From: Escherichia phage vB_EcoM_I14.1
Direction: 5' to 3' (one strand)
Sequence record: PP892526.1
DNA: 64,000 nt
The position numbers were made by a program, and so were the translations under genes. The notes under the pieces are model-generated. The model was not told where the DNA came from, made no database searches, and saw only the letters and a program-made list of their open reading frames with translations. Of the stretch, positions 31,958-56,993 are shown in pieces (the first letter of the stretch is position 1; each line of letters opens with the position of its first letter).

Positions 31958-32998
31958 ATGGAGAAGTATACGCTAACAAAACTTCCCGATTCAGTTACAC
32001 ATGTCTTTATCGACTCTGACAGTATTGCCTATAAAGGTGCTTGTGTAGTTGAGAAAGCAAAATATAAATATGTCAATAAACTCACAGCAGAAGAATCTGA
32101 ACCATTTGATAATGCAAAAGATGCAGCAAGATGGTTAGCAGACCAGAGAATCCTTGTAGAAGAGCTTGGCCTAGCATTTGATGAAGATGAATGGGAAAGA
32201 CAGACTTGGAAAGAAGCTAAGAGTGAAAAAGAAGCTATCATGGCTACTCAGCAGGTTCTTCAGGAATGGCTTAAGGTTGTTGGTAAAGAAAGAACTTGGG
32301 TAGGTTACTTAACAGAGAAGGGTGTACATAAACATAAAGACATTAAAGGTCTTGAGCACCAATATCAAGGTAACCGTAAAGAGGCTGTCACACCAACACA
32401 CTTAGTTGCTTGTCGTGAATATCTTTTATCCAGACCAGAGTTCAAACTCTTAAAGGGTGGCTTCGAAGCCGACTCAATCGTTATTGCTAAAGCTGAAAAG
32501 ATGGGTAAGAAAGCTGCTCTTATGAGTATTGACAAAGACCTTCGACAAGCTGAAGGGACTTATTGTATTGATATGACTTATGAAAAGTCACCACTAATTT
32601 TTATTGCTGATAATAATGTTGGTGATATCTGGGATTGCCCTATCAAATCAAAACCAAAAGCTGCAAAAACAGTTGGTGTAGGTTTTAAATTCTTGTGTTA
32701 TCAGGCTGTTGCTGGAGATAATGCAGACAACTACTTCGGCCTTAAAGGTGCTGGCAAAGTAGCTGTGATGAATGCTTTAGATGGTAAAGAGACCTATAAA
32801 GAGTGTCTTGACGCTATCTATGAACTCTATGCTAAAAAAGACTCTTATACCTATGTGTCATGGGATGGACAGACTGTCACAAAGACACCATTAGAGTTAA
32901 TGGAACAGCATTTCTGGATAGCATATCAAGAGAGAAATCCAAAAGATAATTTCTCTTTTAAGAAATATAATTGGGAGCCGTGTATGAATGAAGATTAA
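31958..32998 (+). CDS. 5'-3' exonuclease / flap endonuclease (RNase H-like)
   Basis: N-terminal acidic cluster VFIDSDSIAYKG; H3TH-like FGLKGAGKVAVMNAL. Confidence 0.45.
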   Translation: MEKYTLTKLPDSVTHVFIDSDSIAYKGACVVEKAKYKYVNKLTAEESEPFDNAKDAARWLADQRILVEELGLAFDEDEWERQTWKEAKSEKEAIMATQQVLQEWLKVVGKERTWVGYLTEKGVHKHKDIKGLEHQYQGNRKEAVTPTHLVACREYLLSRPEFKLLKGGFEADSIVIAKAEKMGKKAALMSIDKDLRQAEGTYCIDMTYEKSPLIFIADNNVGDIWDCPIKSKPKAAKTVGVGFKFLCYQAVAGDNADNYFGLKGAGKVAVMNALDGKETYKECLDAIYELYAKKDSYTYVSWDGQTVTKTPLELMEQHFWIAYQERNPKDNFSFKKYNWEPCMNED

Positions 32999-33485
32999 AG
33001 GATTTGGCAATTGTCCTACCTATGGTCATTGGGTATCTTTATGTGGGGAAGTTGACCCCACTAAACATTTTGGTTTTGTCTATTTAGTACACTGTAAGAA
33101 AACCGGACAATATTATATTGGAAAGAAACAGCTTAATAGCGTGACCAAAAGAAAAGTTGCTGGCAAGACTCGGAAGAAGGTAGTCACTAAGGAGAGTGAT
33201 TGGATGACTTACGAGACTTCTTCTGAGTATATTAAAAAAGATATTGAGAGCTTTGGAAAAGAATTTTTTGACTTTTACATTATCCAAACCTACTACACGA
33301 AAGGTGGCCTAGTTTATGGTGAAGCAAACCTCCAACATAAATTCGATGTAATGACAAAAAGGATTGACTCTAAGCTCAGACTCTTCTACAATGCCAATAT
33401 TGCAGCAATTAAGTTTATCACTAAAGAAACTTATGAAGATGCTGAAAAAAGAATCCATAAGGTAATGAAAGCAAATTGTGCTTGA
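32988..33485 (+). CDS. GIY-YIG-like endonuclease candidate
   Basis: FVYLVHCKKTGQYYIGKK resembles the GIY...YIG motif; weak. Confidence 0.3.
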   Translation: MKIKGFGNCPTYGHWVSLCGEVDPTKHFGFVYLVHCKKTGQYYIGKKQLNSVTKRKVAGKTRKKVVTKESDWMTYETSSEYIKKDIESFGKEFFDFYIIQTYYTKGGLVYGEANLQHKFDVMTKRIDSKLRLFYNANIAAIKFITKETYEDAEKRIHKVMKANCA

Positions 33486-44365: not shown

Positions 44366-45257
44366 GAGAGAAACTATGAAAACATCTATCCGTGTTACAG
44401 TTCATTCACCGACTAAAGGGACTCATGAAGAAGAGTTTAACATCATTCAATTCCCTTCTGGTGAGATTGGTGGACACTTTTCACAAGAGCTTGTTGATTT
44501 TACTGCTTATGCAGCATCATCTATCAACAATGTGATTATGATTGTGAAAGGTTATGATAAGGACACATTGTTTGCTGTGGCACTTGCTAAAGAAGCAATT
44601 GATGATTTAGTCCCTCATGACTATGCCTTAAAGACTGTCATTTTTTACTACTTACCAAATGCACGATATGACCGTCACATGTTTAAAGGTGATGCAGCAG
44701 CTTTAAAGGTTTTTGCTAAACAGGTCAATGCAATGGGGTTTGGTGCAGTCTGTGCAGTTGACCCTCACAGTTATGTACCAGATAACCTGTTTAACTGCTT
44801 CCAGAGTATTCCTCAAAAGGAAATTGCAGTCCACTATGCAAATGACCCACTGGTTGATTACTTAGTAGCCCCAGATGCAGGTGCTGCTAAGAAGATTGCA
44901 GAGACTGCTAAAGAGGTGGATAAGCCATACATCACAATGTCTAAAGTGCGTAACCTTAAAACTGGTGAAATTACTGGTATGCGAATCCTTGATGATGTTG
45001 ATTTGACAGATAAAACCGTCATGATTCTGGATGATATTTGTGATGGAGGACGAACCTTCATAGAAGCAGCTAAACATCTTCGTGAAGCAGGTGCAAAACG
45101 TGTGGAACTCTATGTAACACATGGTATCTTCTCTAAAGGTGTTGAAAACTTACTTGACAATGGTATTGACCACATCTACACTACAAACTCTTTAGGGGAA
45201 GCTAAAGACCGTGGCTTAACACATTATGGTCAAGTTACTGTAGCAAATTTGGATTAG
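44358..45257 (+). CDS. prs: ribose-phosphate pyrophosphokinase (PRPP synthetase)
   Basis: PRPP-binding loop VMILDDICDGGRTF; ~300 aa. Confidence 0.8.
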   Translation: MTERETMKTSIRVTVHSPTKGTHEEEFNIIQFPSGEIGGHFSQELVDFTAYAASSINNVIMIVKGYDKDTLFAVALAKEAIDDLVPHDYALKTVIFYYLPNARYDRHMFKGDAAALKVFAKQVNAMGFGAVCAVDPHSYVPDNLFNCFQSIPQKEIAVHYANDPLVDYLVAPDAGAAKKIAETAKEVDKPYITMSKVRNLKTGEITGMRILDDVDLTDKTVMILDDICDGGRTFIEAAKHLREAGAKRVELYVTHGIFSKGVENLLDNGIDHIYTTNSLGEAKDRGLTHYGQVTVANLD

Positions 45258-45265
45258 GTATTAAA

Positions 45266-45757
45266 ATGGATAAGGGTTACTTCGAAAAATACCTAATATA
45301 CGAACCGGAGACAGGTTTACTAATTTGGAAAGTAACCCTTTGCAATACCGCTATTGCTGGTAATGTTGCTGGCACAAGGTCTAAGAAGGGTTATATCCAA
45401 GTCCAGATAAATAAGAAGAGGTACTATGCACATAATATTGCATGGATTATGTCTGGAGGTGAGATACCAAGTGGATATGAGATAGACCACATAGACCTTG
45501 ATAAATCTAATAATAAGTTGGAGAATTTAAGACTTAGCACAAAGTCACAAAATCAGAGGAATAGGGGTATATACAAGAATAATAAAACTGGTGTGAAGGG
45601 TGTAAGTTTTTGTAAACAAACAGGTCTTTACAAAGCAAGAGTCATGCTTTACCATAAAGAATACTTTTGTGGAAGATTTAAAACGGTAGAAGAAGCAAAA
45701 GAAGCTGTAATTAAAAAGCGAATAGAACTTCATGGTGAGTTTGCAAGACATAACTAA
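45266..45757 (+). CDS. HNH homing endonuclease with AP2 DNA-binding domain
   Basis: HNH_3-type YEIDHIDLDKSNNKLENLRL; AP2-like GVKGVSF...YKARV...GRFKTVEEAKEA. Confidence 0.7.
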   Translation: MDKGYFEKYLIYEPETGLLIWKVTLCNTAIAGNVAGTRSKKGYIQVQINKKRYYAHNIAWIMSGGEIPSGYEIDHIDLDKSNNKLENLRLSTKSQNQRNRGIYKNNKTGVKGVSFCKQTGLYKARVMLYHKEYFCGRFKTVEEAKEAVIKKRIELHGEFARHN

Positions 45758-45771
45758 GAGAGAGATAAAAT

Positions 45772-47553
45772 ATGAGTAAGTCACTTTACGCAGTACCAGC
45801 AGGTCTTAATGCAGATGCTTACAAGGCATCACATATATATCAGTATCCAGATGCTACGCAATATCTTATGTTGAACCTGACACCACGTAGTGACAAATGG
45901 TTTAACAGCCCCTTAGCAATTGATGGTGTAGTTGCTTTTGGTATTCAACGTTTCGTTAAAGATTACTTGATAGACCATTGGAATGCCACCTTCTTTGAAC
46001 GTGATAAAAAAGAAGCAATTGACGAAATCTTAGAAGTCATGAACGGTGTTCTGGGTAAAGATGCTATTGGTCGAGAACATTGGGAAGCACTCCACGATTT
46101 AGGTTATCTACCAGTTGAAGTATACGCTGTAGAAGAAGGCACAGTTGTTCCTATGCGTGTACCAATGATTGTCTTCCAGAACACTGTTTCAGGTTTCCAT
46201 TGGGTAGCTGGGTATCTGGAAGATGCTTTCTCTGCTGAGATTTGGAAGGCTTGTACCATTGCAACTATTGCATTGCACTATAAACGTATCTGTAAGAAGT
46301 GGTCTGACCTTACTTGTGATAACGACTTACATTTGCCTTATCAGTGCCATGACTTTGCTATGCGTGGTATGTCTGGCTTTACTGATGACGCATTTAACGC
46401 TGTAGGTCACTTAACCAGCTTTAAAGGAACTGACAGCTTCCCTGCTGTGTATACAGCTAAACGCATCTATGGACAGTCCTACCCAATCTCTGATATTGGT
46501 AGTTCTGTACCAGCCACTGAACACTCTGTAATGTGTGCAAACATTGCTTGGGAAGGTGGTAATGAGTTGATTGAAGAAGAAAGACGCTTTAAAGGTGAGT
46601 TACAAACCTTCCGTCGTTTCTTAACAGAAACTTACCCAACTGGCATTGCAAGTGTTGTTTCAGATACTTATAACTTCTGGAGAACTGTATCAGTTATATT
46701 ACCAGAACTTCGTAAAGAGATTATGGAACGTGATGGCAAACTGGTAATTCGTCCTGACTCTGGAGACCCTGTACATATTGTCACAGGCTATAAAGCAATC
46801 CACTTAGAGTGTGCTAAAAAGGCTTATTACGAACACCTAAGCAAGCTGGAAGCCAGCGACACAATGTTGAATGCTGTTCTGAACATGAAGCTTGAAAACA
46901 TCAATTATGGTATTGCTGGATGGCTATTGTCAGAAGGCTACGAAATGGTTGTTGACAGAGAAGACTTTGAAGTTGCTGATACAGTGCTGTTGAAAAATGC
47001 TTATATGGTTGGTTCTGCAAACGTTGTAACACGTCCTGTAGCGGAGATTGATGGAGCTATCAAGACACTGTATAACATCTTTGGAGGAACTATCAACTCT
47101 AAAGGTTTTAAAGTACTGGATGAGCATATCGGACTGATTTATGGCGACTCTATCACGTTGGAACGTGCAAACGAAATACTGAAGCGTTTGTATGAAATGG
47201 GTTTTGCAAGCTCTAACGTAGTGTTTGGTGTAGGTTCTTATACTTACCAGTACATGACTCGTGATACCTTTGCATTTGCTGTCAAAGCAACTCTTGCAAG
47301 CATTGGTGGTAAAGAGATTATGCTTGCAAAAGACCCTAAAACAGATAGCGGTGTTAAGAAGTCTGCTTTTGGTGGTGTAGCACCTATGTGGGATGGTGAT
47401 AATCTGAAAGCTGTAGATGGCTATGGATTCCAGAGCTTTGCAGATGTGCTAGAGCATCCAGCTTGTGCTTTACGTTTAGTCTTTAGCGACTCTGAGCAGT
47501 TCGGTTACACAACTCTTGGTGATATTCGAAATAATATTGACAAGCAGCTTTAA
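45772..47553 (+). CDS. nadV: nicotinamide phosphoribosyltransferase
   Basis: Alignable to NAMPT: DAYKASHIYQYP, CHDFAMRG, FKGTD, PATEHS, VVSDTYN. Confidence 0.85.
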   Translation: MSKSLYAVPAGLNADAYKASHIYQYPDATQYLMLNLTPRSDKWFNSPLAIDGVVAFGIQRFVKDYLIDHWNATFFERDKKEAIDEILEVMNGVLGKDAIGREHWEALHDLGYLPVEVYAVEEGTVVPMRVPMIVFQNTVSGFHWVAGYLEDAFSAEIWKACTIATIALHYKRICKKWSDLTCDNDLHLPYQCHDFAMRGMSGFTDDAFNAVGHLTSFKGTDSFPAVYTAKRIYGQSYPISDIGSSVPATEHSVMCANIAWEGGNELIEEERRFKGELQTFRRFLTETYPTGIASVVSDTYNFWRTVSVILPELRKEIMERDGKLVIRPDSGDPVHIVTGYKAIHLECAKKAYYEHLSKLEASDTMLNAVLNMKLENINYGIAGWLLSEGYEMVVDREDFEVADTVLLKNAYMVGSANVVTRPVAEIDGAIKTLYNIFGGTINSKGFKVLDEHIGLIYGDSITLERANEILKRLYEMGFASSNVVFGVGSYTYQYMTRDTFAFAVKATLASIGGKEIMLAKDPKTDSGVKKSAFGGVAPMWDGDNLKAVDGYGFQSFADVLEHPACALRLVFSDSEQFGYTTLGDIRNNIDKQL

Positions 47554-52135: not shown

Positions 52136-52684
52136 ATGAAGAAGTTGATTCTAGGTTTGTGCTTAATGTTTACAGCACACTTATCTTATGCAGTTGACTG
52201 CCCAGAGCTATCAATTAGCCAAAAAGTTAACATGTTAAAAGCTTACCAGTATGGTGAGAATAATATGGGGAAGGGCTGGGGTATTACTCTAGCAGCTATA
52301 GCCTTACAAGAGTCAGAGTTAGGTCTGAAGGTAGAGAATAAAAAGACCCATGACTATGGTATTTTCCAGAATCACTTGAAGACTGTTGTAAAGCGTAACA
52401 AAATTAGTCCTAATGTGGCTAAAAAGAAACTCTTAAAAGATTTTGACTATGCAGCAAAAGAGACGCATAAAGAGCTTGAGTTTTGGACGAAGGTACATGG
52501 TCAACCAAAGTCAAAGAAGACTTTACAAAAAGTTTTAGCATCATATAATGCTGGGTATTCGTACAAAATTCCTAAAGCTAAGAAATACTCTCAAGATGTC
52601 TACAACAATATGAAAGTTATTGCTCAATGTGAATTTGCAACAAACATTTCTAAGGTAAATCATGAAAAAATTAAGAAAGTCTGA
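52136..52684 (+). CDS. lytic transglycosylase (SLT domain) with signal peptide; endolysin candidate
   Basis: Signal peptide MKKLILGLCLMFTAHLSYA; SLT motifs ALQESELG, DYGIFQ, SYNAGYSY. Confidence 0.55.
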   Translation: MKKLILGLCLMFTAHLSYAVDCPELSISQKVNMLKAYQYGENNMGKGWGITLAAIALQESELGLKVENKKTHDYGIFQNHLKTVVKRNKISPNVAKKKLLKDFDYAAKETHKELEFWTKVHGQPKSKKTLQKVLASYNAGYSYKIPKAKKYSQDVYNNMKVIAQCEFATNISKVNHEKIKKV

Positions 52685-53357
52685 TGAAGTCCTGTGCCAT
52701 GCTTACGACCTACATCCTCATGAGTTAGGTCTTGATTCCTGTGTATGGACCTCAGAACAGTGCAGAGATTTTGAAGATACTGCAAGAGAAGTTGTATGTT
52801 CACTTGAAGAGTTCCACACATCAGAATCAATTGTGAACGTTGTGGACAAAGAGACTGGACAGCCTATAGGTGTAAGACGTGACAGTTTAGTCATAGTCAA
52901 TAAAGACCTTGTAGAAAAAGGTAACCTCATCTTAGCAGATATTGATGGTGTTCTTACAAATTTTAATCACGAAGATTGCTCAACGGAACTGACTGATGGG
53001 TCATTCTCACAGTACACTAATCTTCTTGACTCTGTAAGAGCAAAACCAACGTATGTTTTTAGTATTATTGATGCAATCGCTAATCATGCTGCCATTGGAC
53101 TCTTGACAGCAAGAGGTGAATCTCAGAGAATACCTACTGAGATGTTTTTAAGGCATAACATAGAGCATGATTACATGCTTTTTATGCGTGGTTTTGGAAC
53201 TAACTCTATAAGTGCAGAAAGTTTAAAAGCTAGGATGATTCAGTCTTGCATTCTGCCTTACTTTAATATAGTATGTTTTATAGAAGATACAGAGAAGAAT
53301 GTTCAGAAGGTAAACAGAATCCTTCCACACATTAAAACCATGTTAGTTAAACATTGA
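52662..53357 (+). CDS. HAD-superfamily phosphatase candidate (start uncertain)
   Basis: Motif I-like LADIDGVLTNF; weak. Confidence 0.35.
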   Translation: MKKLRKSDEVLCHAYDLHPHELGLDSCVWTSEQCRDFEDTAREVVCSLEEFHTSESIVNVVDKETGQPIGVRRDSLVIVNKDLVEKGNLILADIDGVLTNFNHEDCSTELTDGSFSQYTNLLDSVRAKPTYVFSIIDAIANHAAIGLLTARGESQRIPTEMFLRHNIEHDYMLFMRGFGTNSISAESLKARMIQSCILPYFNIVCFIEDTEKNVQKVNRILPHIKTMLVKH

Positions 53358-55289: not shown

Positions 55290-55497
55290 AAAGACCCGTA
55301 AGATTGTACGTTCAGCAGTATTCAAAGGGAGACATGAAGTCGTCCCGTTTGCAGGAGAAGATGTGTTAACTTACAAGAAGGTGATGAAACGTGAGTCCAG
55401 TAACCATTTCCGTGACTTCTTCTCTGAACCATTAGAAGATTTTAAAAGTCGTTGTGGTAAAGGTATCATCACTCAAGAGGTAATTATTCATGGCTGA
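55264..55497 (+). CDS. hypothetical protein
   Basis: 77-aa ORF. Confidence 0.3.
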   Translation: MKVILARDKKTRKIVRSAVFKGRHEVVPFAGEDVLTYKKVMKRESSNHFRDFFSEPLEDFKSRCGKGIITQEVIIHG

Positions 55498-55690
55498 CTT
55501 CTGCAAAGACTGCTCTATCGAAATGTTCGGACGTGATACAGGTGACTTAAAAGGTCTTATCACTGAAGATGACTTTAAAGCTGGCTATGCAATGCCAGTA
55601 ATATGTGAAGGTTGTGGATGTATCTGGGTAGACCATGAAGGACAACGTGTAAAACCTTCAGAAGATAAAGAATCTTGGGAGAGATGCTAA
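55490..55690 (+). CDS. zinc-ribbon protein
   Basis: CKDC ... CEGCGC. Confidence 0.3.
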   Translation: MADFCKDCSIEMFGRDTGDLKGLITEDDFKAGYAMPVICEGCGCIWVDHEGQRVKPSEDKESWERC

Positions 55691-56476
55691 ATGGGTATTG
55701 TAAAAATCATCAATGGGGATATCTTCTCCGCATTTGATAAAGGTAAGTTTGATATCATTGGTCACGGTTGCAACTGTATGAACTTAATGGGTGCAGGTAT
55801 CGCTGCCAAGATTTCTAAACTTTACCCAAAAGCATATGAGACCGATACAGAAGTTTATCTGTATGCAGGTGGTATAGGCCACAAACCCTGTGAAAATTTA
55901 CTAGGTAATTTCTCTGTAGCACGTTTAGAACAAGGCCGTATAGCTAACCTTTACACTCAGCTTAAGACTGGTAAAGATGCCCGATACAGTGCTTTAGAGT
56001 CATCTTTGAAACAGCTTAACAGATACTGTGAAGTCAATCAGTTGAAGAAAGTTGGGTTACCTATGATTGGTGCAGGTATCGGTGGACTAGACCCTCAAGC
56101 CGTCGCAGTTATCATTAATCAGGTGATGAAGAGTGTAGATGTGTATCTGTATGTCTACGAAGGCGAGATGTACCACAAGTTACGCTCAGGTTGGAAGAAC
56201 TACTGTGAACCAGAATACTTTGCAGGTGTAGTAATGTTCACAGATGATACAGTTACCCTCTTCAGACGAAGAAAAGGTAAGATACATCAAAGTAACCCTC
56301 CGGTTGAGAAGATGTCTCTAAGTAACGCTCTAGTTACCCACCTGTCGAAGAGCAATCACAGAATTGCAGTAACATTTGGCAGTGATGCAGATACATATAT
56401 CTATGCAAGAACTGATGAGGATGTTGAGGAAATTTTCTCTTCACCGGAAGTTACCTTCTTAGACGCAAAGAACTAA
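55691..56476 (+). CDS. macrodomain protein (TARG1/DarG-like ADP-ribose hydrolase candidate)
   Basis: N-terminus VKIINGDIFSAF...FDIIGHGCNCMNLMGAGIAAKI resembles recalled TARG1/OARD1 signature (CISEDCRMGAGIA). Confidence 0.5.
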   Translation: MGIVKIINGDIFSAFDKGKFDIIGHGCNCMNLMGAGIAAKISKLYPKAYETDTEVYLYAGGIGHKPCENLLGNFSVARLEQGRIANLYTQLKTGKDARYSALESSLKQLNRYCEVNQLKKVGLPMIGAGIGGLDPQAVAVIINQVMKSVDVYLYVYEGEMYHKLRSGWKNYCEPEYFAGVVMFTDDTVTLFRRRKGKIHQSNPPVEKMSLSNALVTHLSKSNHRIAVTFGSDADTYIYARTDEDVEEIFSSPEVTFLDAKN

Positions 56477-56539
56477 GAAACTCTGTAGAATATTCACAAT
56501 AGACTAAGCCTTTCTTATCTGGTAAATTTTTCAGGTAAG

Positions 56540-56760
56540 GAGGGCTTTTTCATTTCAGGATTGTGCAGGCAGAGTTCTGTAGAGAAATCTGTAGAGAAAA
56601 TTTTGAACTCCAAAGAGAAAATTCATTTTCAAACTGTGCAGGTAATCTCCAAAGAGCTTTTTCATTTTCAAAACGTGCAGACCCCGCTCAGGTCGGGCAA
56701 GAAAAATCATTTTAGAATTGTGCAGGTAGGTGGGTGCAGGTGGGGATGTCGCCATTTCTC
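56540..56760. repeat. cluster of 4-5 direct repeats with core (t)TCATTTtCA(a)a(a)TGTGCAGG
   Basis: Copies near 56548, 56620, 56662, 56705, plus gtgcagg again at 56735; ORF-free, upstream of first early promoter. Confidence 0.5.
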
Positions 56761-56904
56761 ACAAGGCTACCACATCTGGAAATAAAAGTCAACAGAAAAA
56801 TTTGTAGCGGATTGAAAAATAATTCTTGATTATAGTTCTGTTTTGTGGTAGTCGCGTGCGCCCGTTTCATTACAGTTTTTGCAAAAATATTTTTAAAATT
56901 TTTC

Positions 56905-56993
56905 TTGACTCTCTGACTATGGTTATTTAATATTTGCATCAACGGGGGGCGATGACCTCCCAGCTAACTAACCTTAAACTAGGAGATTCAAAA
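56905..56993 (+). promoter_or_regulatory. early promoter plus conserved leader hairpin and RBS (cassette 1)
   Basis: TTGACT-N17-TAATAT, then aacggggggcgatgacctccc hairpin, then ccttaaactaggagattcaaaaATG. Confidence 0.55.

What the first reader, a model, noticed from the sequence alone, without database searches (positions are those of the whole stretch)
55691..56476. TARG1/DarG-like macrodomain protein: candidate ADP-ribose-removing counter-defence enzyme
The N-terminus (GDIFSAF...DIIGHGCNCMNLMGAGIAAKI) matches what I recall of the TARG1/OARD1-type macrodomain, the same type as the DarG antitoxin that removes DarT ADP-ribosylation from DNA. A phage copy, encoded 8 kb from prs and nadV, could reverse ADP-ribosylation of phage DNA or protein, or degrade ADP-ribose-derived immune signals. 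A ~110-aa C-terminal domain is of unknown function. Family assignment is from memory of motifs, not a search.
Basis: partly seen in the sequence, partly recalled or inferred. Interest (0 to 1): 0.65.

Follow-up and report, generated by a model that had tools for sequence, protein, structure and literature searches.

The report
Phage macrodomain enzyme with orphan tail
This Felix-O1-like coliphage gene encodes a real ADP-ribose-processing macrodomain enzyme, related to two recently described phage counter-defence enzymes, fused to a small domain of unknown fold; it is an untested variant of a known kind rather than something new in kind.

Summary
The ORF (55691..56476, +, 261 aa) is real. The window is Escherichia phage vB_EcoM_D4, a Felixounavirus, and the gene is the orthologue of Bas63 bas63_0095 (96% identity).

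Residues 1-157 are a confident macrodomain of the TARG1/DarG/SCO6735/Poa1p clade: Pfam is above threshold and the AF2 model has pLDDT 92 and TM 0.86 to TARG1. The TARG1/DarG catalytic Lys is absent. An invariant Gln (Q90, NLYTQ) takes its place, together with H25, N28 and G127/G129. This is the constellation of SCO6735, which cleaves thymidine-linked ADP-ribose from DNA.

The family contains two tested phage enzymes:
- T4 Tk.4/AdfM, which counters DarTG2.
- Vibrio phage Gary Adpp, an ADPR-1''-phosphate phosphatase that feeds NARP1 against aRES.

Our protein is about equally distant from both, and the tree is a star. It does share with Tk.4 a short post-Gln loop and a GxGI motif. None of the NARP1-adjacent macros has these (0/28 versus 11/58 clusters). 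The prs/nadV pair 8 kb upstream is NARP1 itself.

Residues 158-261 are an orphan domain with no structural or sequence relatives outside this family.

Best guess: an AdfM-like DNA de-ADP-ribosylase (about 0.45). Main rival: Adpp (about 0.27). Interest is moderate.

The parts
55691..56476 (+). CDS, 261 aa: macrodomain plus an orphan C-terminal domain. GenBank XDC03053.1 'phosphatase'; orthologue of Bas63 bas63_0095.
   Evidence: ORF list. 100% match to PP886228.1 81054-81839. 96.2% identical to bas63_0095. PHROG 335, E=4.5e-113.
55691..56161 (+). Macrodomain (residues 1-157) of the TARG1/DarG/SCO6735/Poa1p-like clade.
   Evidence: Pfam PF01661 above its gathering score. Profile against PDB: TARG1 2e-17, Mtb DarG 3e-16, SCO6735 5e-16, Poa1p 2e-14. 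Foldseek TM 0.86 to TARG1 and 0.84 to Taq DarG. PADLOC DarG 1.8e-13.
55763..55777 (+). Motif 1, H25-G-C-N28-C. His and Asn correspond to SCO6735 His24/Asn27 and to PhiKZ AdfM Asn23.
   Evidence: Invariant in 32 homologues. Alignment with gp104 and TARG1. Mutant data come from the literature.
55946..55960 (+). Motif 2, N86-L-Y-T-Q90. Gln90 occupies the position of the catalytic Lys84 of TARG1 and Lys80 of DarG, as Gln85 does in SCO6735. It is followed by a short 7-residue loop (LKTGKDA).
   Evidence: N86, L87, T89 and Q90 are invariant (Y88 nearly so). HMMER and MAFFT alignments to TARG1 'LITK' and gp104 'FPTK'. Loop-length analysis.
56060..56092 (+). Motif 3, P124-M-I-G-A-G-I-G-G-L-D134 (phosphate-binding loop). 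Gly131 stands where TARG1 has Asp125.
   Evidence: P124, G127 and G129 are invariant. TARG1 alignment PRIGCGLDRLQW. The GxGI versus GxGL class split.
56162..56473 (+). Linker helix (residues 158-167) plus a beta-rich C-terminal domain (about residues 175-255) of unknown fold and function. It is found only fused to this macrodomain.
55676..55682 (+). Shine-Dalgarno-like GGGAGAG upstream of the start codon.
   Evidence: Read directly from the sequence.
56506..56547 (+). Terminator-like hairpin (17 pairs, followed by a T-run) 30 nt after the stop codon. The gene probably ends a transcription unit.
   Evidence: Consensus scan and sequence. This is a pattern match only.
44376..45257 (+). Context: Adps (Prs-like ADP-ribose pyrophosphokinase), the first enzyme of NARP1 and a possible functional partner.
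   Evidence: Pfam Pribosyltran/Pribosyl_synth. 79% identical to bas63_0079. NARP1 was defined on Bas63.
45772..47553 (+). Context: Namat (Nampt-like nicotinamide ADP-ribose transferase), the second enzyme of NARP1. It is separated from Adps by an HNH endonuclease gene.
   Evidence: Pfam NAPRTase/NAMPT_N. 97% identical to bas63_0080. Annotation.

Best explanation
The gene encodes a catalytically competent ADP-ribose-1''-bond hydrolase of the phage Tk.4/AdfM-Adpp macrodomain family. It is probably made from an early/middle accessory-gene block and acts in counter-defence.

Most likely mechanism (inferred). It works like T4 AdfM (Tk.4) and SCO6735.
1. The macrodomain binds the ADP-ribose that a DarT2-type toxin attaches to thymidine in single-stranded phage DNA.
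2. Gln90 is held by Asn28, and together with His25 and the Gly-rich loop it positions the distal ribose and a water molecule.
3. The N-glycosidic link is cut, giving intact DNA and free ADP-ribose, so replication can continue.

The fused C-terminal domain is an accessory module of unknown role. It may recognise the substrate or a partner. Free ADP-ribose is also the substrate of the phage's own NARP1.

What is shown and what is inferred:
- Shown here: fold, family, motif constellation, architecture, conservation and gene context.
- Taken from the literature on homologues: hydrolysis of dT-ADP-ribose, and resistance to DarTG2.
- Inferred only: that this protein does the same, and everything about the C-terminal domain.
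For: - Fold and family.
- DarG profiles match the macro part more strongly for this protein than for T4 Tk.4 or Gary Adpp. PADLOC gives 1.8e-13 against 5.7e-10 for Tk.4. NCBIfam gives 48.8 bits against 31.4 for Tk.4 and 34.9 for Gary Adpp.
- The invariant residues H25, N28, Q90 and G127/G129 reproduce the set shown by mutagenesis to be needed for dT-ADP-ribose cleavage in SCO6735: His24, Asn27, Gln85, Gly128. They also include the Asn mutated in PhiKZ AdfM.
- T4 Tk.4/AdfM carries the same motifs. It is 34% identical (82 bits). Knocking it out sensitises T4 to DarTG2.
- Class test on 86 sequence clusters from 164 loci. This protein and all other Ounavirinae copies fall with Tk.4 in the class with a 7-residue loop after the Gln and a GxGI[GA]G motif. 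In that class 0 of 28 clusters have Adps or Namat within 3 kb.
- Every NARP1-adjacent macro, including Gary Adpp, belongs to the other class (loop of 9 or more residues, GxGL[AG]GG). There 11 of 58 clusters have NARP1 within 3 kb (Fisher p=0.014).
- The gene is not in the NARP1 operon. It lies 8.1 kb and about 17 genes downstream, beyond rIIA/rIIB, and has its own terminator-like hairpin.
Against: - No Ounavirinae macro protein has been tested.
- The phylogeny is unresolved. The Ounavirinae clade (bootstrap 64-70%) has no supported sister.
- The protein is as similar to a macro inside an Adps-macro-Namat operon (L072, 35%, 86 bits) as it is to Tk.4. Tk.4 and Gary Adpp are themselves 35% identical.
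- The loop/motif classifier is a correlation. It rests on two seeded samples, relatedness is only partly removed, and most long-loop proteins are not near NARP1 either.
- The evidence for T4 AdfM is genetic only. The biochemically proven AdfM, PhiKZ gp104, is a Lys-type enzyme only 24-25% identical to this one.
- NARP1 and this gene have stayed in the same genomes and the same gene order down to 33-36% protein identity. That would also suit a metabolic partnership.
Confidence: 0.45

Rival explanations
1. Adpp-type function. The macrodomain dephosphorylates ADP-ribose-1''-phosphate, the product of RES-domain (aRES) NAD+ phosphorolysis, to ADP-ribose. The phage's own NARP1 (Adps + Namat, 8 kb upstream) then rebuilds NAD+. 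This would be a dispersed NARP1-AP pathway.
For: - The protein is in the same family as Vibrio phage Gary Adpp, a proven ADPR-1''P phosphatase.
- It is 35% identical to the macro inside the L072 Adps-macro-Namat operon.
- Poa1p is among the best structural matches.
- The genome carries a bona fide NARP1, orthologous to Bas63 g79/g80.
- NARP1 alone cannot beat aRES, so a NARP1 phage gains from having an Adpp.
- NARP1 and the macro gene are retained together in the same gene order across deep divergence.
- The published screen looked only within two genes of NARP1. A copy 8 kb away would have been missed.
Against: - The gene is not operonic with NARP1. It is about 17 genes away, with rIIA/rIIB in between.
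- It lacks the long post-Gln loop and the GxGL[AG]GG motif shared by every NARP1-adjacent macro sampled (0/28 versus 11/58 clusters).
- Its similarity to Gary Adpp itself is the weakest of the comparisons within this family (27%, 53 bits).
- The extra C-terminal domain has no counterpart in any operon-type Adpp.
Confidence: 0.27
2. Promiscuous enzyme doing both jobs. The same active site removes ADP-ribose from DarT-modified DNA and also dephosphorylates ADPR-1''P. Both reactions yield free ADP-ribose, which NARP1 recycles to NAD+.
For: - Tk.4/AdfM and Gary Adpp are 35% identical and share all catalytic motifs.
- SCO6735 acts on both DNA and protein substrates.
- Viral macrodomains are reported to dephosphorylate ADPR-1''P in vitro besides their other activities (discussion).
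- The star-like tree shows no clean functional split.
Against: - No family member has been shown to have both activities.
- The two sequence classes suggest some specialisation.
Confidence: 0.12
3. Another ADP-ribose substrate. Candidates are reversal of protein or RNA ADP-ribosylation by host defence ARTs, hydrolysis of O-acetyl-ADP-ribose or of ADP-ribose-derived immune signals, or clearance of Appr-1''-p from an RNA-repair route linked to the conserved PNK-like gene 2.3 kb upstream.
For: - TARG1 and SCO6735 de-modify proteins.
- Sources name cluster members 'O-acetyl-ADP-ribose deacetylase'.
- One family member is fused to a cyclic-phosphate-processing receiver domain, PF20274.
- A PNK-like gene is kept 2-3 kb upstream in all relatives examined.
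Against: - There is no specific evidence for any of these substrates.
- No phage-encoded ART or Tpt1 is annotated in the window.
- The source names are automatic annotations.
- The TARG1 Lys/Asp dyad used for Glu/Asp-linked protein ADP-ribose is missing.
Confidence: 0.11
4. Non-catalytic ADP-ribose binder (reader or sponge). The macrodomain only sequesters ADP-ribose-containing molecules, or binds and blocks an ART such as DarT.
For: - Some cluster members are named 'high-affinity ADP-ribose binding module'.
- Catalytically dead SCO6735, DarG and TARG1 still inhibit DarT by binding it.
- The classical Lys is absent.
Against: All residues needed for catalysis in the Gln-type enzyme SCO6735 are invariant here. 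Such strict conservation of H, N, Q and G across 32 homologues down to 29% identity points to an active enzyme.
Confidence: 0.05

Closest known systems
T4 Tk.4 = AdfM (anti-DarT factor Macrodomain), bioRxiv 10.1101/2025.11.20.689424
   Same: - Same phage macrodomain family (PHROG 335-type 'phosphatase').
- 34% identity, 82 bits.
- Same HGCNC / NLYTQ / PxIGAGIG motifs.
- Same short 7-residue loop after the catalytic Gln, and not adjacent to NARP1.
- A non-essential accessory gene in a virulent coliphage.
   Different: - Tk.4 is a single domain of 155 aa. This protein has an extra orphan domain of about 100 aa.
- The two form separate clades (Tk.4 bootstrap 97%, Ounavirinae 64-70%) with no supported sister relation.
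- T4 has no NARP1.
- Tk.4 has a genetic phenotype against DarTG2. This protein has none on record.
Adpp of Vibrio phage Gary (KNV71_gp137), NARP1-AP pathway, bioRxiv 10.64898/2026.01.28.702374
   Same: - Same family and catalytic motifs (H-x-C-N-C, N-x-Y-x-Q, Gly-rich loop).
- Poa1p-like fold.
- The phage also carries Adps and Namat.
   Different: - Only 27% identity, 53 bits.
- Adpp sits between Adps and Namat. This gene is 8.1 kb away.
- Adpp has a 14-residue loop after the Gln and GCGLAGGD. This protein has 7 residues and GAGIGGLD.
- Adpp has no C-terminal domain.
SCO6735 of Streptomyces coelicolor (PDB 5e3b), PMC9411070
   Same: - TARG1/DarG (ALC1-like) class macrodomain in which Gln replaces the catalytic Lys.
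- His, Asn, Gln and Gly are required.
- It cleaves thymidine-linked ADP-ribose from DNA.
- Profile E=4.7e-16.
   Different: - A bacterial housekeeping or stress protein, single domain.
- Distant in sequence.
- The equivalence of residues was inferred through TARG1, not from a direct alignment shown here.
DarG antitoxin (DarTG2), PDB 5m31/5m3e/5m3i; and PhiKZ gp104 AdfM, PMC13309987
   Same: - Macrodomain of the same clade (TM 0.81-0.84).
- DarG HMMs hit the macro part.
- Two-module layout: macro plus a C-terminal domain.
- The conserved Asn (N28 here, N23 in gp104) is present.
   Different: - DarG and gp104 use a catalytic Lys (FPTK in gp104). Here it is Gln.
- NCBIfam DarG score is 48.8 against a cut-off of 250, and only positions 4-153 of 338 are matched.
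- The C-terminal domain shows no similarity to any solved structure.
- There is no adjacent darT.
Human TARG1/OARD1 (PDB 4j5r) and yeast Poa1p (PDB 6lfq)
   Same: Best sequence and structure matches among solved structures.
   Different: - The TARG1 Lys84/Asp125 dyad is replaced by Gln90/Gly131.
- Both are eukaryotic single-domain proteins with other physiological roles.

Membership tests
Macro domain (Pfam PF01661) | Profile match above the curated gathering score | tested here: met
   33.6 bits against a cut-off of 22, residues 25-141.
Macro domain (Pfam PF01661) | Three-layer alpha/beta/alpha macro fold | tested here: met
   AF2 pLDDT 91.8. Foldseek TM 0.86 to TARG1, 0.84 to Taq DarG and 0.77 to Poa1p.
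TARG1/DarG/SCO6735/Poa1p-like (ALC1-like) macrodomain class | Closer to this class than to MacroD, viral Mac1 or PARG types | tested here: met
   Profile against PDB: TARG1 2e-17, DarG 3e-16, SCO6735 5e-16, Poa1p 2e-14. Alphavirus macrodomains (nsP3) score only about 3e-3.
TARG1 | Catalytic Lys84/Asp125 dyad | tested here: not met
   Lys84 aligns with the invariant Gln90, and Asp125 aligns with Gly131.
DarG antitoxin | Catalytic Lys (Lys80) in the macrodomain | tested here: not met
   Gln90 occupies the equivalent position. The equivalence Lys80 = TARG1 Lys84 = SCO6735 Gln85 is taken from PMC9411070. gp104 FPTK aligns with NLYTQ.
DarG antitoxin | C-terminal DarT-binding domain / full-length equivalog score | tested here: not met
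DarG antitoxin | Encoded next to a darT toxin gene | tested here: not met
   The neighbours are small phage ORFs. No toxin is annotated or detected.
Gln-type DNA ADP-ribosyl hydrolase (SCO6735-like) | Gln in place of the Lys, plus conserved His, Asn and loop Gly | tested here: met
   H25, N28, Q90, G127 and G129 are invariant in 32 homologues. The correspondence was made through TARG1, not by a direct SCO6735 alignment.
Gln-type DNA ADP-ribosyl hydrolase (SCO6735-like) | Hydrolysis of thymidine-linked ADP-ribose on ssDNA | not testable with these tools
   This needs a biochemical assay.
AdfM (T4 Tk.4 type) | Sequence homology with shared motifs and loop class | tested here: met
   34% identity, 82 bits. 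Same short-loop / GxGI class. It is not a supported sister clade.
AdfM (T4 Tk.4 type) | Required for phage resistance to DarTG2 | not testable with these tools
   Shown only for T4. There are no data for any Felixounavirus.
Adpp / NARP1-AP | Macro gene within the Adps-Namat operon (within two genes) | tested here: not met
   8.1 kb and about 17 genes downstream of Namat. The same spacing of 7.5-10 kb is seen in all Ounavirinae loci.
Adpp / NARP1-AP | NARP1 (Adps + Namat) present in the same genome | tested here: met
   Window 44376-45257 and 45772-47553. 79% and 97% identical to Bas63 g79 and g80. NARP1 was defined on Bas63.
Adpp / NARP1-AP | Sequence class of the NARP1-adjacent macros (loop of 9 or more residues after the Gln, GxGL[AG]GG). 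This feature was derived here, not published. | tested here: not met
   Loop of 7 residues and GAGIGGLD. All 11 clusters with NARP1 within 3 kb are long-loop.
Adpp / NARP1-AP | ADPR-1''-phosphate phosphatase activity | not testable with these tools
   This needs an LC-MS assay, as.

The most novel reading that the evidence does not exclude
The C-terminal domain is a new, exchangeable targeting module that makes this protein an independently evolved, phage-borne analogue of two-module DarG. The macrodomain erases the ADP-ribose mark, while the C-terminal domain binds the offending ADP-ribosyltransferase or the ssDNA substrate.

Different Ounavirinae lineages carry unrelated C-terminal modules. 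The D4 type and the Erwinia phiEa104 type show no detectable homology. On this reading they track different toxins.

The ADP-ribose released would feed the phage's own NARP1, closing an NAD+ recycling loop around DarT-type defence.
Probability: 0.13. Interest if true: 0.65.

Novelty: new variant of a known kind. Interest (0 to 1): 0.4.

Why it matters
Phage macrodomains have only just (2025-2026) been tied to two different counter-defence roles: erasing DarT2 marks on DNA, and repairing the NAD+ breakdown product made by aRES. This protein sits between the two.

- Its sequence class is that of the DNA eraser, but its genome carries the founding NARP1 pathway. Finding out which reaction it catalyses would show how substrate specificity is encoded in this very widespread family (2803 phage records with a tblastn match).
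- It would also show whether NARP1 phages such as Felix O1 relatives are protected from aRES.
- The orthologue bas63_0095 lies in a genetically tractable BASEL phage. The experiments are therefore simple and the answer would transfer to about 250 sequenced Ounavirinae, several of which are used for O157:H7 and Salmonella biocontrol.
- The orphan C-terminal domain is a small extra unknown.
- At present the gene is annotated only as 'phosphatase' or 'hypothetical protein', which hides all of this.

Tried and rejected
1. Phylogeny to assign the protein to AdfM or Adpp. A neighbour-joining tree with 500 bootstraps on 51 macro domains gave a star with no supported sister for the Ounavirinae clade. 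An earlier Biopython run timed out and a first bootstrap had a distance bug. No maximum-likelihood program was available.
2. Simple similarity does not discriminate: Tk.4 82 bits, operon macro L072 86 bits, Gary Adpp 53 bits. The DarG HMMs also hit Gary Adpp.
3. Net charge and pI of the macro and C-terminal domains, as a hint of DNA binding, are not conserved among homologues.
4. Identity of the C-terminal domain:
   - Pfam at E up to 10 found nothing.
   - BFVD returned only its own family.
   - The AFDB50 library was unavailable.
   - The exhaustive HMM search found only its own family, a 114-aa fragment and a 54-aa fragment, plus weak hits to long repeat proteins that I regard as noise.
   - hhalign against the Erwinia-phage C-terminal half gave probability 0.07%.
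5. Direct experimental data on a Felixounavirus copy were not found. PhageMaP on Bas63 used a defence panel whose text mentions neither DarTG nor aRES (the latter was described only later), and it does not mention g95. The aRES and HIDEN-SEQ papers do not mention Bas63. The NARP3 paper is irrelevant to macrodomains.
6. The record's 'NAD synthetase' was considered as a further NAD-pathway gene and rejected. It is a SegE-type GIY-YIG endonuclease.
7. tRNA and Rfam searches of the neighbourhood found nothing.
8. I could not print a direct residue-by-residue alignment to DarG or SCO6735, because the PDB tool shows only the five best matches and all five were TARG1. Those equivalences are therefore transitive.
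Full report
**1. The observation**

A GGGAGAG Shine-Dalgarno-like element lies 9-15 nt upstream. The stop codon of a 66-aa CxxC...CxxC ORF abuts the ATG. A 17-bp hairpin followed by a T-run lies 30 nt after the stop.

The window is 100% identical to Escherichia phage vB_EcoM_D4 (PP886228.1; window coordinate = record coordinate minus 25363). This is a Felix-O1-like myovirus. The gene is annotated there as 'phosphatase'. Its orthologue in the BASEL model phage Bas63 (JohannRWettstein) is bas63_0095, 96.2% identical.

**2. The macrodomain**

- Pfam Macro is matched above the gathering score (33.6 against 22 bits). PHROG 335 'phosphatase' covers the whole protein at E=4.5e-113.
- With a profile of 32 homologues the ranking is TARG1 2e-17, Mtb DarG 3e-16, SCO6735 5e-16, Poa1p 2e-14 and Taq DarG 1e-13. 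Alphavirus macrodomains (nsP3) score only about 3e-3.
- An AlphaFold2 model built on that alignment is confident (pLDDT 91.8, pTM 0.89). Its best structural matches are the same proteins: TM 0.86 to TARG1, 0.84 to Taq DarG, 0.81 to Mtb DarG and 0.77 to Poa1p.
- The DarG models of PADLOC (1.8e-13) and NCBIfam (6e-13) hit the macro part only.

The fold and the clade are settled.

**3. The catalytic residues**

TARG1 Lys84 (LITK) and the Lys of PhiKZ gp104 (FPTK) align with an invariant Gln, Q90, in the motif NLYTQ. TARG1 Asp125 aligns with Gly131.

This does not make the protein inactive. In Streptomyces SCO6735, a member of the same class, Gln85 stands at the position of TARG1 Lys84 and DarG Lys80, and its mutation abolishes activity. 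His24, Asn27 and Gly128 also matter, and the enzyme removes ADP-ribose from thymidine in DNA (PMC9411070).

The invariant residues of our family are H25, G26, N28, C29, M33, G36, A38, P46, G72, N86, L87, T89, Q90, P124, G127 and G129. That is the same constellation. T4-type Tk.4 has the same motifs. The Asn mutated in PhiKZ AdfM (N23A) corresponds to N28. The correspondence with SCO6735 and DarG is transitive through TARG1, because I could not print direct alignments.

**4. What is known about relatives**

tblastn finds relatives in 2803 phage records. Two members of the family have been tested.

- (a) T4 tk.4. A transposon screen and a clean knock-out showed it is needed for resistance to DarTG2, and it was named adfM (bioRxiv 10.1101/2025.11.20.689424). 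A more distant Lys-type macrodomain, PhiKZ gp104, also named AdfM, removes DarT2 ADP-ribose from DNA in vitro (PMC13309987).
- (b) Adpp of Vibrio phage Gary. This Poa1p-like macrodomain is encoded between Adps and Namat. It dephosphorylates ADPR-1''-phosphate, the product of the RES-domain defence aRES, so that NARP1 can rebuild NAD+ (bioRxiv 10.64898/2026.01.28.702374).

No paper deals with an Ounavirinae copy. The Bas63 knock-out atlas places the region in a non-essential block. The text of that paper mentions neither DarTG nor aRES (which was described only later), and it does not mention g95.

**5. The neighbourhood**

NARP1 was discovered in Bas63. The window's genes are 79% (Adps, 44376-45257) and 97% (Namat, 45772-47553) identical to bas63_0079 and bas63_0080. 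Deleting those two Bas63 genes sensitises the phage to Sir2-HerA.

The macro gene lies 8.1 kb and about 17 genes further downstream, beyond rIIA, rIIB, a PNK-like gene and the spanins. This spacing of 7.5-10 kb recurs in every Ounavirinae locus that reached far enough. It also recurs in metagenomic relatives whose two-domain macro protein is only 33-36% identical. The two have therefore been co-inherited for a long time, but never as an operon.

**6. AdfM or Adpp?**

Similarity does not decide. The scores are Tk.4 82 bits (34%), Gary Adpp 53 bits (27%) and the macro of an Adps-macro-Namat operon (L072) 86 bits (35%). Tk.4 and Gary Adpp are 35% identical to each other.

A neighbour-joining tree of 51 domains is a star. 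The Ounavirinae clade has 64-70% bootstrap support and the Tk.4 clade 97%. The NARP1-linked macros are scattered, and no sister relation is supported.

A sequence feature does separate them. I took 164 loci from two independently seeded scans of IMG/VR and clustered them at 70% identity into 86 clusters.
- 28 clusters have a 7-residue loop after the catalytic Gln and the motif GxGI[GA]G. They include Tk.4 and all Ounavirinae proteins.
- 58 clusters have a loop of 9-17 residues and mostly GxGL[AG]GG. They include Gary Adpp, K460 and L072.
- Adps or Namat lies within 3 kb in 0/28 of the first class and 11/58 of the second (Fisher p=0.014). Within 500 bp the counts are 0/28 and 9/58 (p=0.028).

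The loop directly follows the catalytic residue, so a role in substrate choice is plausible. That role is an inference. The association is moderate, and relatedness among the sequences was only partly removed.

On this evidence I put the AdfM-like reading first (0.45), Adpp second (0.27), a dual enzyme third (0.12), other ADP-ribose substrates at 0.11 and a non-catalytic binder at 0.05. A general statement, an active ADP-ribose-1''-bond hydrolase used in counter-defence, I hold at about 0.85.

**7. The C-terminal domain**

Residues 158-261 form a helix and then a beta-rich domain, both in the full model and in a separate model (pLDDT 80.8).

- A profile search of all 1.84 billion representative proteins found only the same macro-fused family, two fragments and some weak repeat-protein hits.
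- In the phage collection it occurs in 242 records, all Ounavirinae-type, and always as the tail of this gene.
- It is poorly conserved. Only P and G of an FPxxFxG-like stretch and one Tyr are conserved.
- The Erwinia members of the subfamily carry a different, non-homologous C-terminal half (hhalign probability 0.07%) and have Gln instead of His25. Another relative is fused to a cREC_REC domain.

So the macrodomain is a stable core and the C-terminal module varies. The function of the module is unknown. By analogy with DarG it could bind a toxin or the substrate, but no fold similarity supports this.

**8. Comparison, novelty and verdict**

The protein works like, and is homologous to, known phage counter-defence macrodomains. 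It is not TARG1 (the dyad is missing). It is not DarG (no Lys, no DarT-binding domain, no toxin neighbour, and a score far below the equivalog cut-off). It is not an operonic Adpp.

It is best described as a distinct, two-domain Ounavirinae branch of the Tk.4/AdfM-Adpp family, that is, a new variant of a known kind.

Interest is moderate (0.4). A specialist would not be surprised by a phage macrodomain in 2026. Three points are open and easy to test in Bas63: the unresolved choice between two documented activities in a phage that carries the founding NARP1, the possible sequence rule for specificity, and the orphan variable C-terminal module.

Noticed in passing
window 56541-56725: Three to four direct repeats of 28-34 nt (approximately CTCCAAAGAG-N5-TTCATTTTCAAAACGTGCAG, spaced 39-73 nt). 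They lie just after the macro gene's terminator-like hairpin, inside a stretch of about 450 nt (56477-56993) where the GenBank record annotates only three tiny ORFs. No Rfam or tRNA match. This may be a repeated promoter or operator, or a non-coding RNA region.
   Followed up: partly
window 55490-55690: A 66-aa ORF with CxxC...CxxC (CKDC...CEGC), zinc-ribbon-like, whose stop codon abuts the macro gene's ATG. It has no Pfam match and is 98.5% identical to bas63_0094. It may be translationally coupled to the macro gene, or a partner of it.
   Followed up: partly
window 32988-33485: The gene annotated 'NAD synthetase' in the GenBank record is a SegE-type GIY-YIG homing endonuclease (Pfam PF19835, E=9e-28). 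It is not an NAD-pathway enzyme.
   Followed up: yes
window 45266-45757: An HNH endonuclease gene is inserted between the two NARP1 genes, Adps and Namat. Bas63 lacks it, and there the two genes are 45 nt apart. Adps is only 79% identical to Bas63 Adps while Namat is 97% identical, which suggests homing-associated exchange at this spot.
   Followed up: partly
L032:8483-9262 and L033:9998-10777 (Erwinia phage phiEa104-like Ounavirinae): A 260-aa macro protein with QGCNC instead of HGCNC (His25 to Gln). Its C-terminal half is not homologous to the D4-type C-terminal domain. The C-terminal module therefore appears to have been exchanged within the subfamily.
   Followed up: partly
protein P0025 (339 aa, metagenomic): A family member in which the macrodomain is fused to a cREC_REC domain ('cyclic-phosphate processing receiver', PF20274). 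This hints at a link between some members and ADP-ribose cyclic-phosphate or RNA-repair chemistry.
   Followed up: no
164 loci L001-L165, macro proteins: The phage Tk.4/Adpp macro family splits into two classes. One has a short loop (7 residues after the catalytic Gln, GxGI[GA]G). The other has a long loop (9-17 residues, GxGL[AG]GG). Only the long-loop class is found next to NARP1 genes. This is a candidate specificity determinant that I did not find described in the papers consulted here.
   Followed up: yes
window 52662-53357, and L085:7565-8227, L086:7675-8361: A PNK-like (HAD_PNKP) gene is kept 2-3 kb upstream of the macro gene in all relatives examined, down to 33% macro identity. The window copy itself has no Pfam hit at E up to 0.01, although it is annotated 'polynucleotide kinase'.
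   Followed up: no
L003:3169-6122 (Vibrio phage K460) and L072:9332-11425: Further three-gene Adps-macro-Namat (NARP1-AP-like) operons. The K460 macro has a divergent Gly-rich loop (PFKMGCDRAGGS) and NLHAQ in place of NxYxQ.
   Followed up: partly
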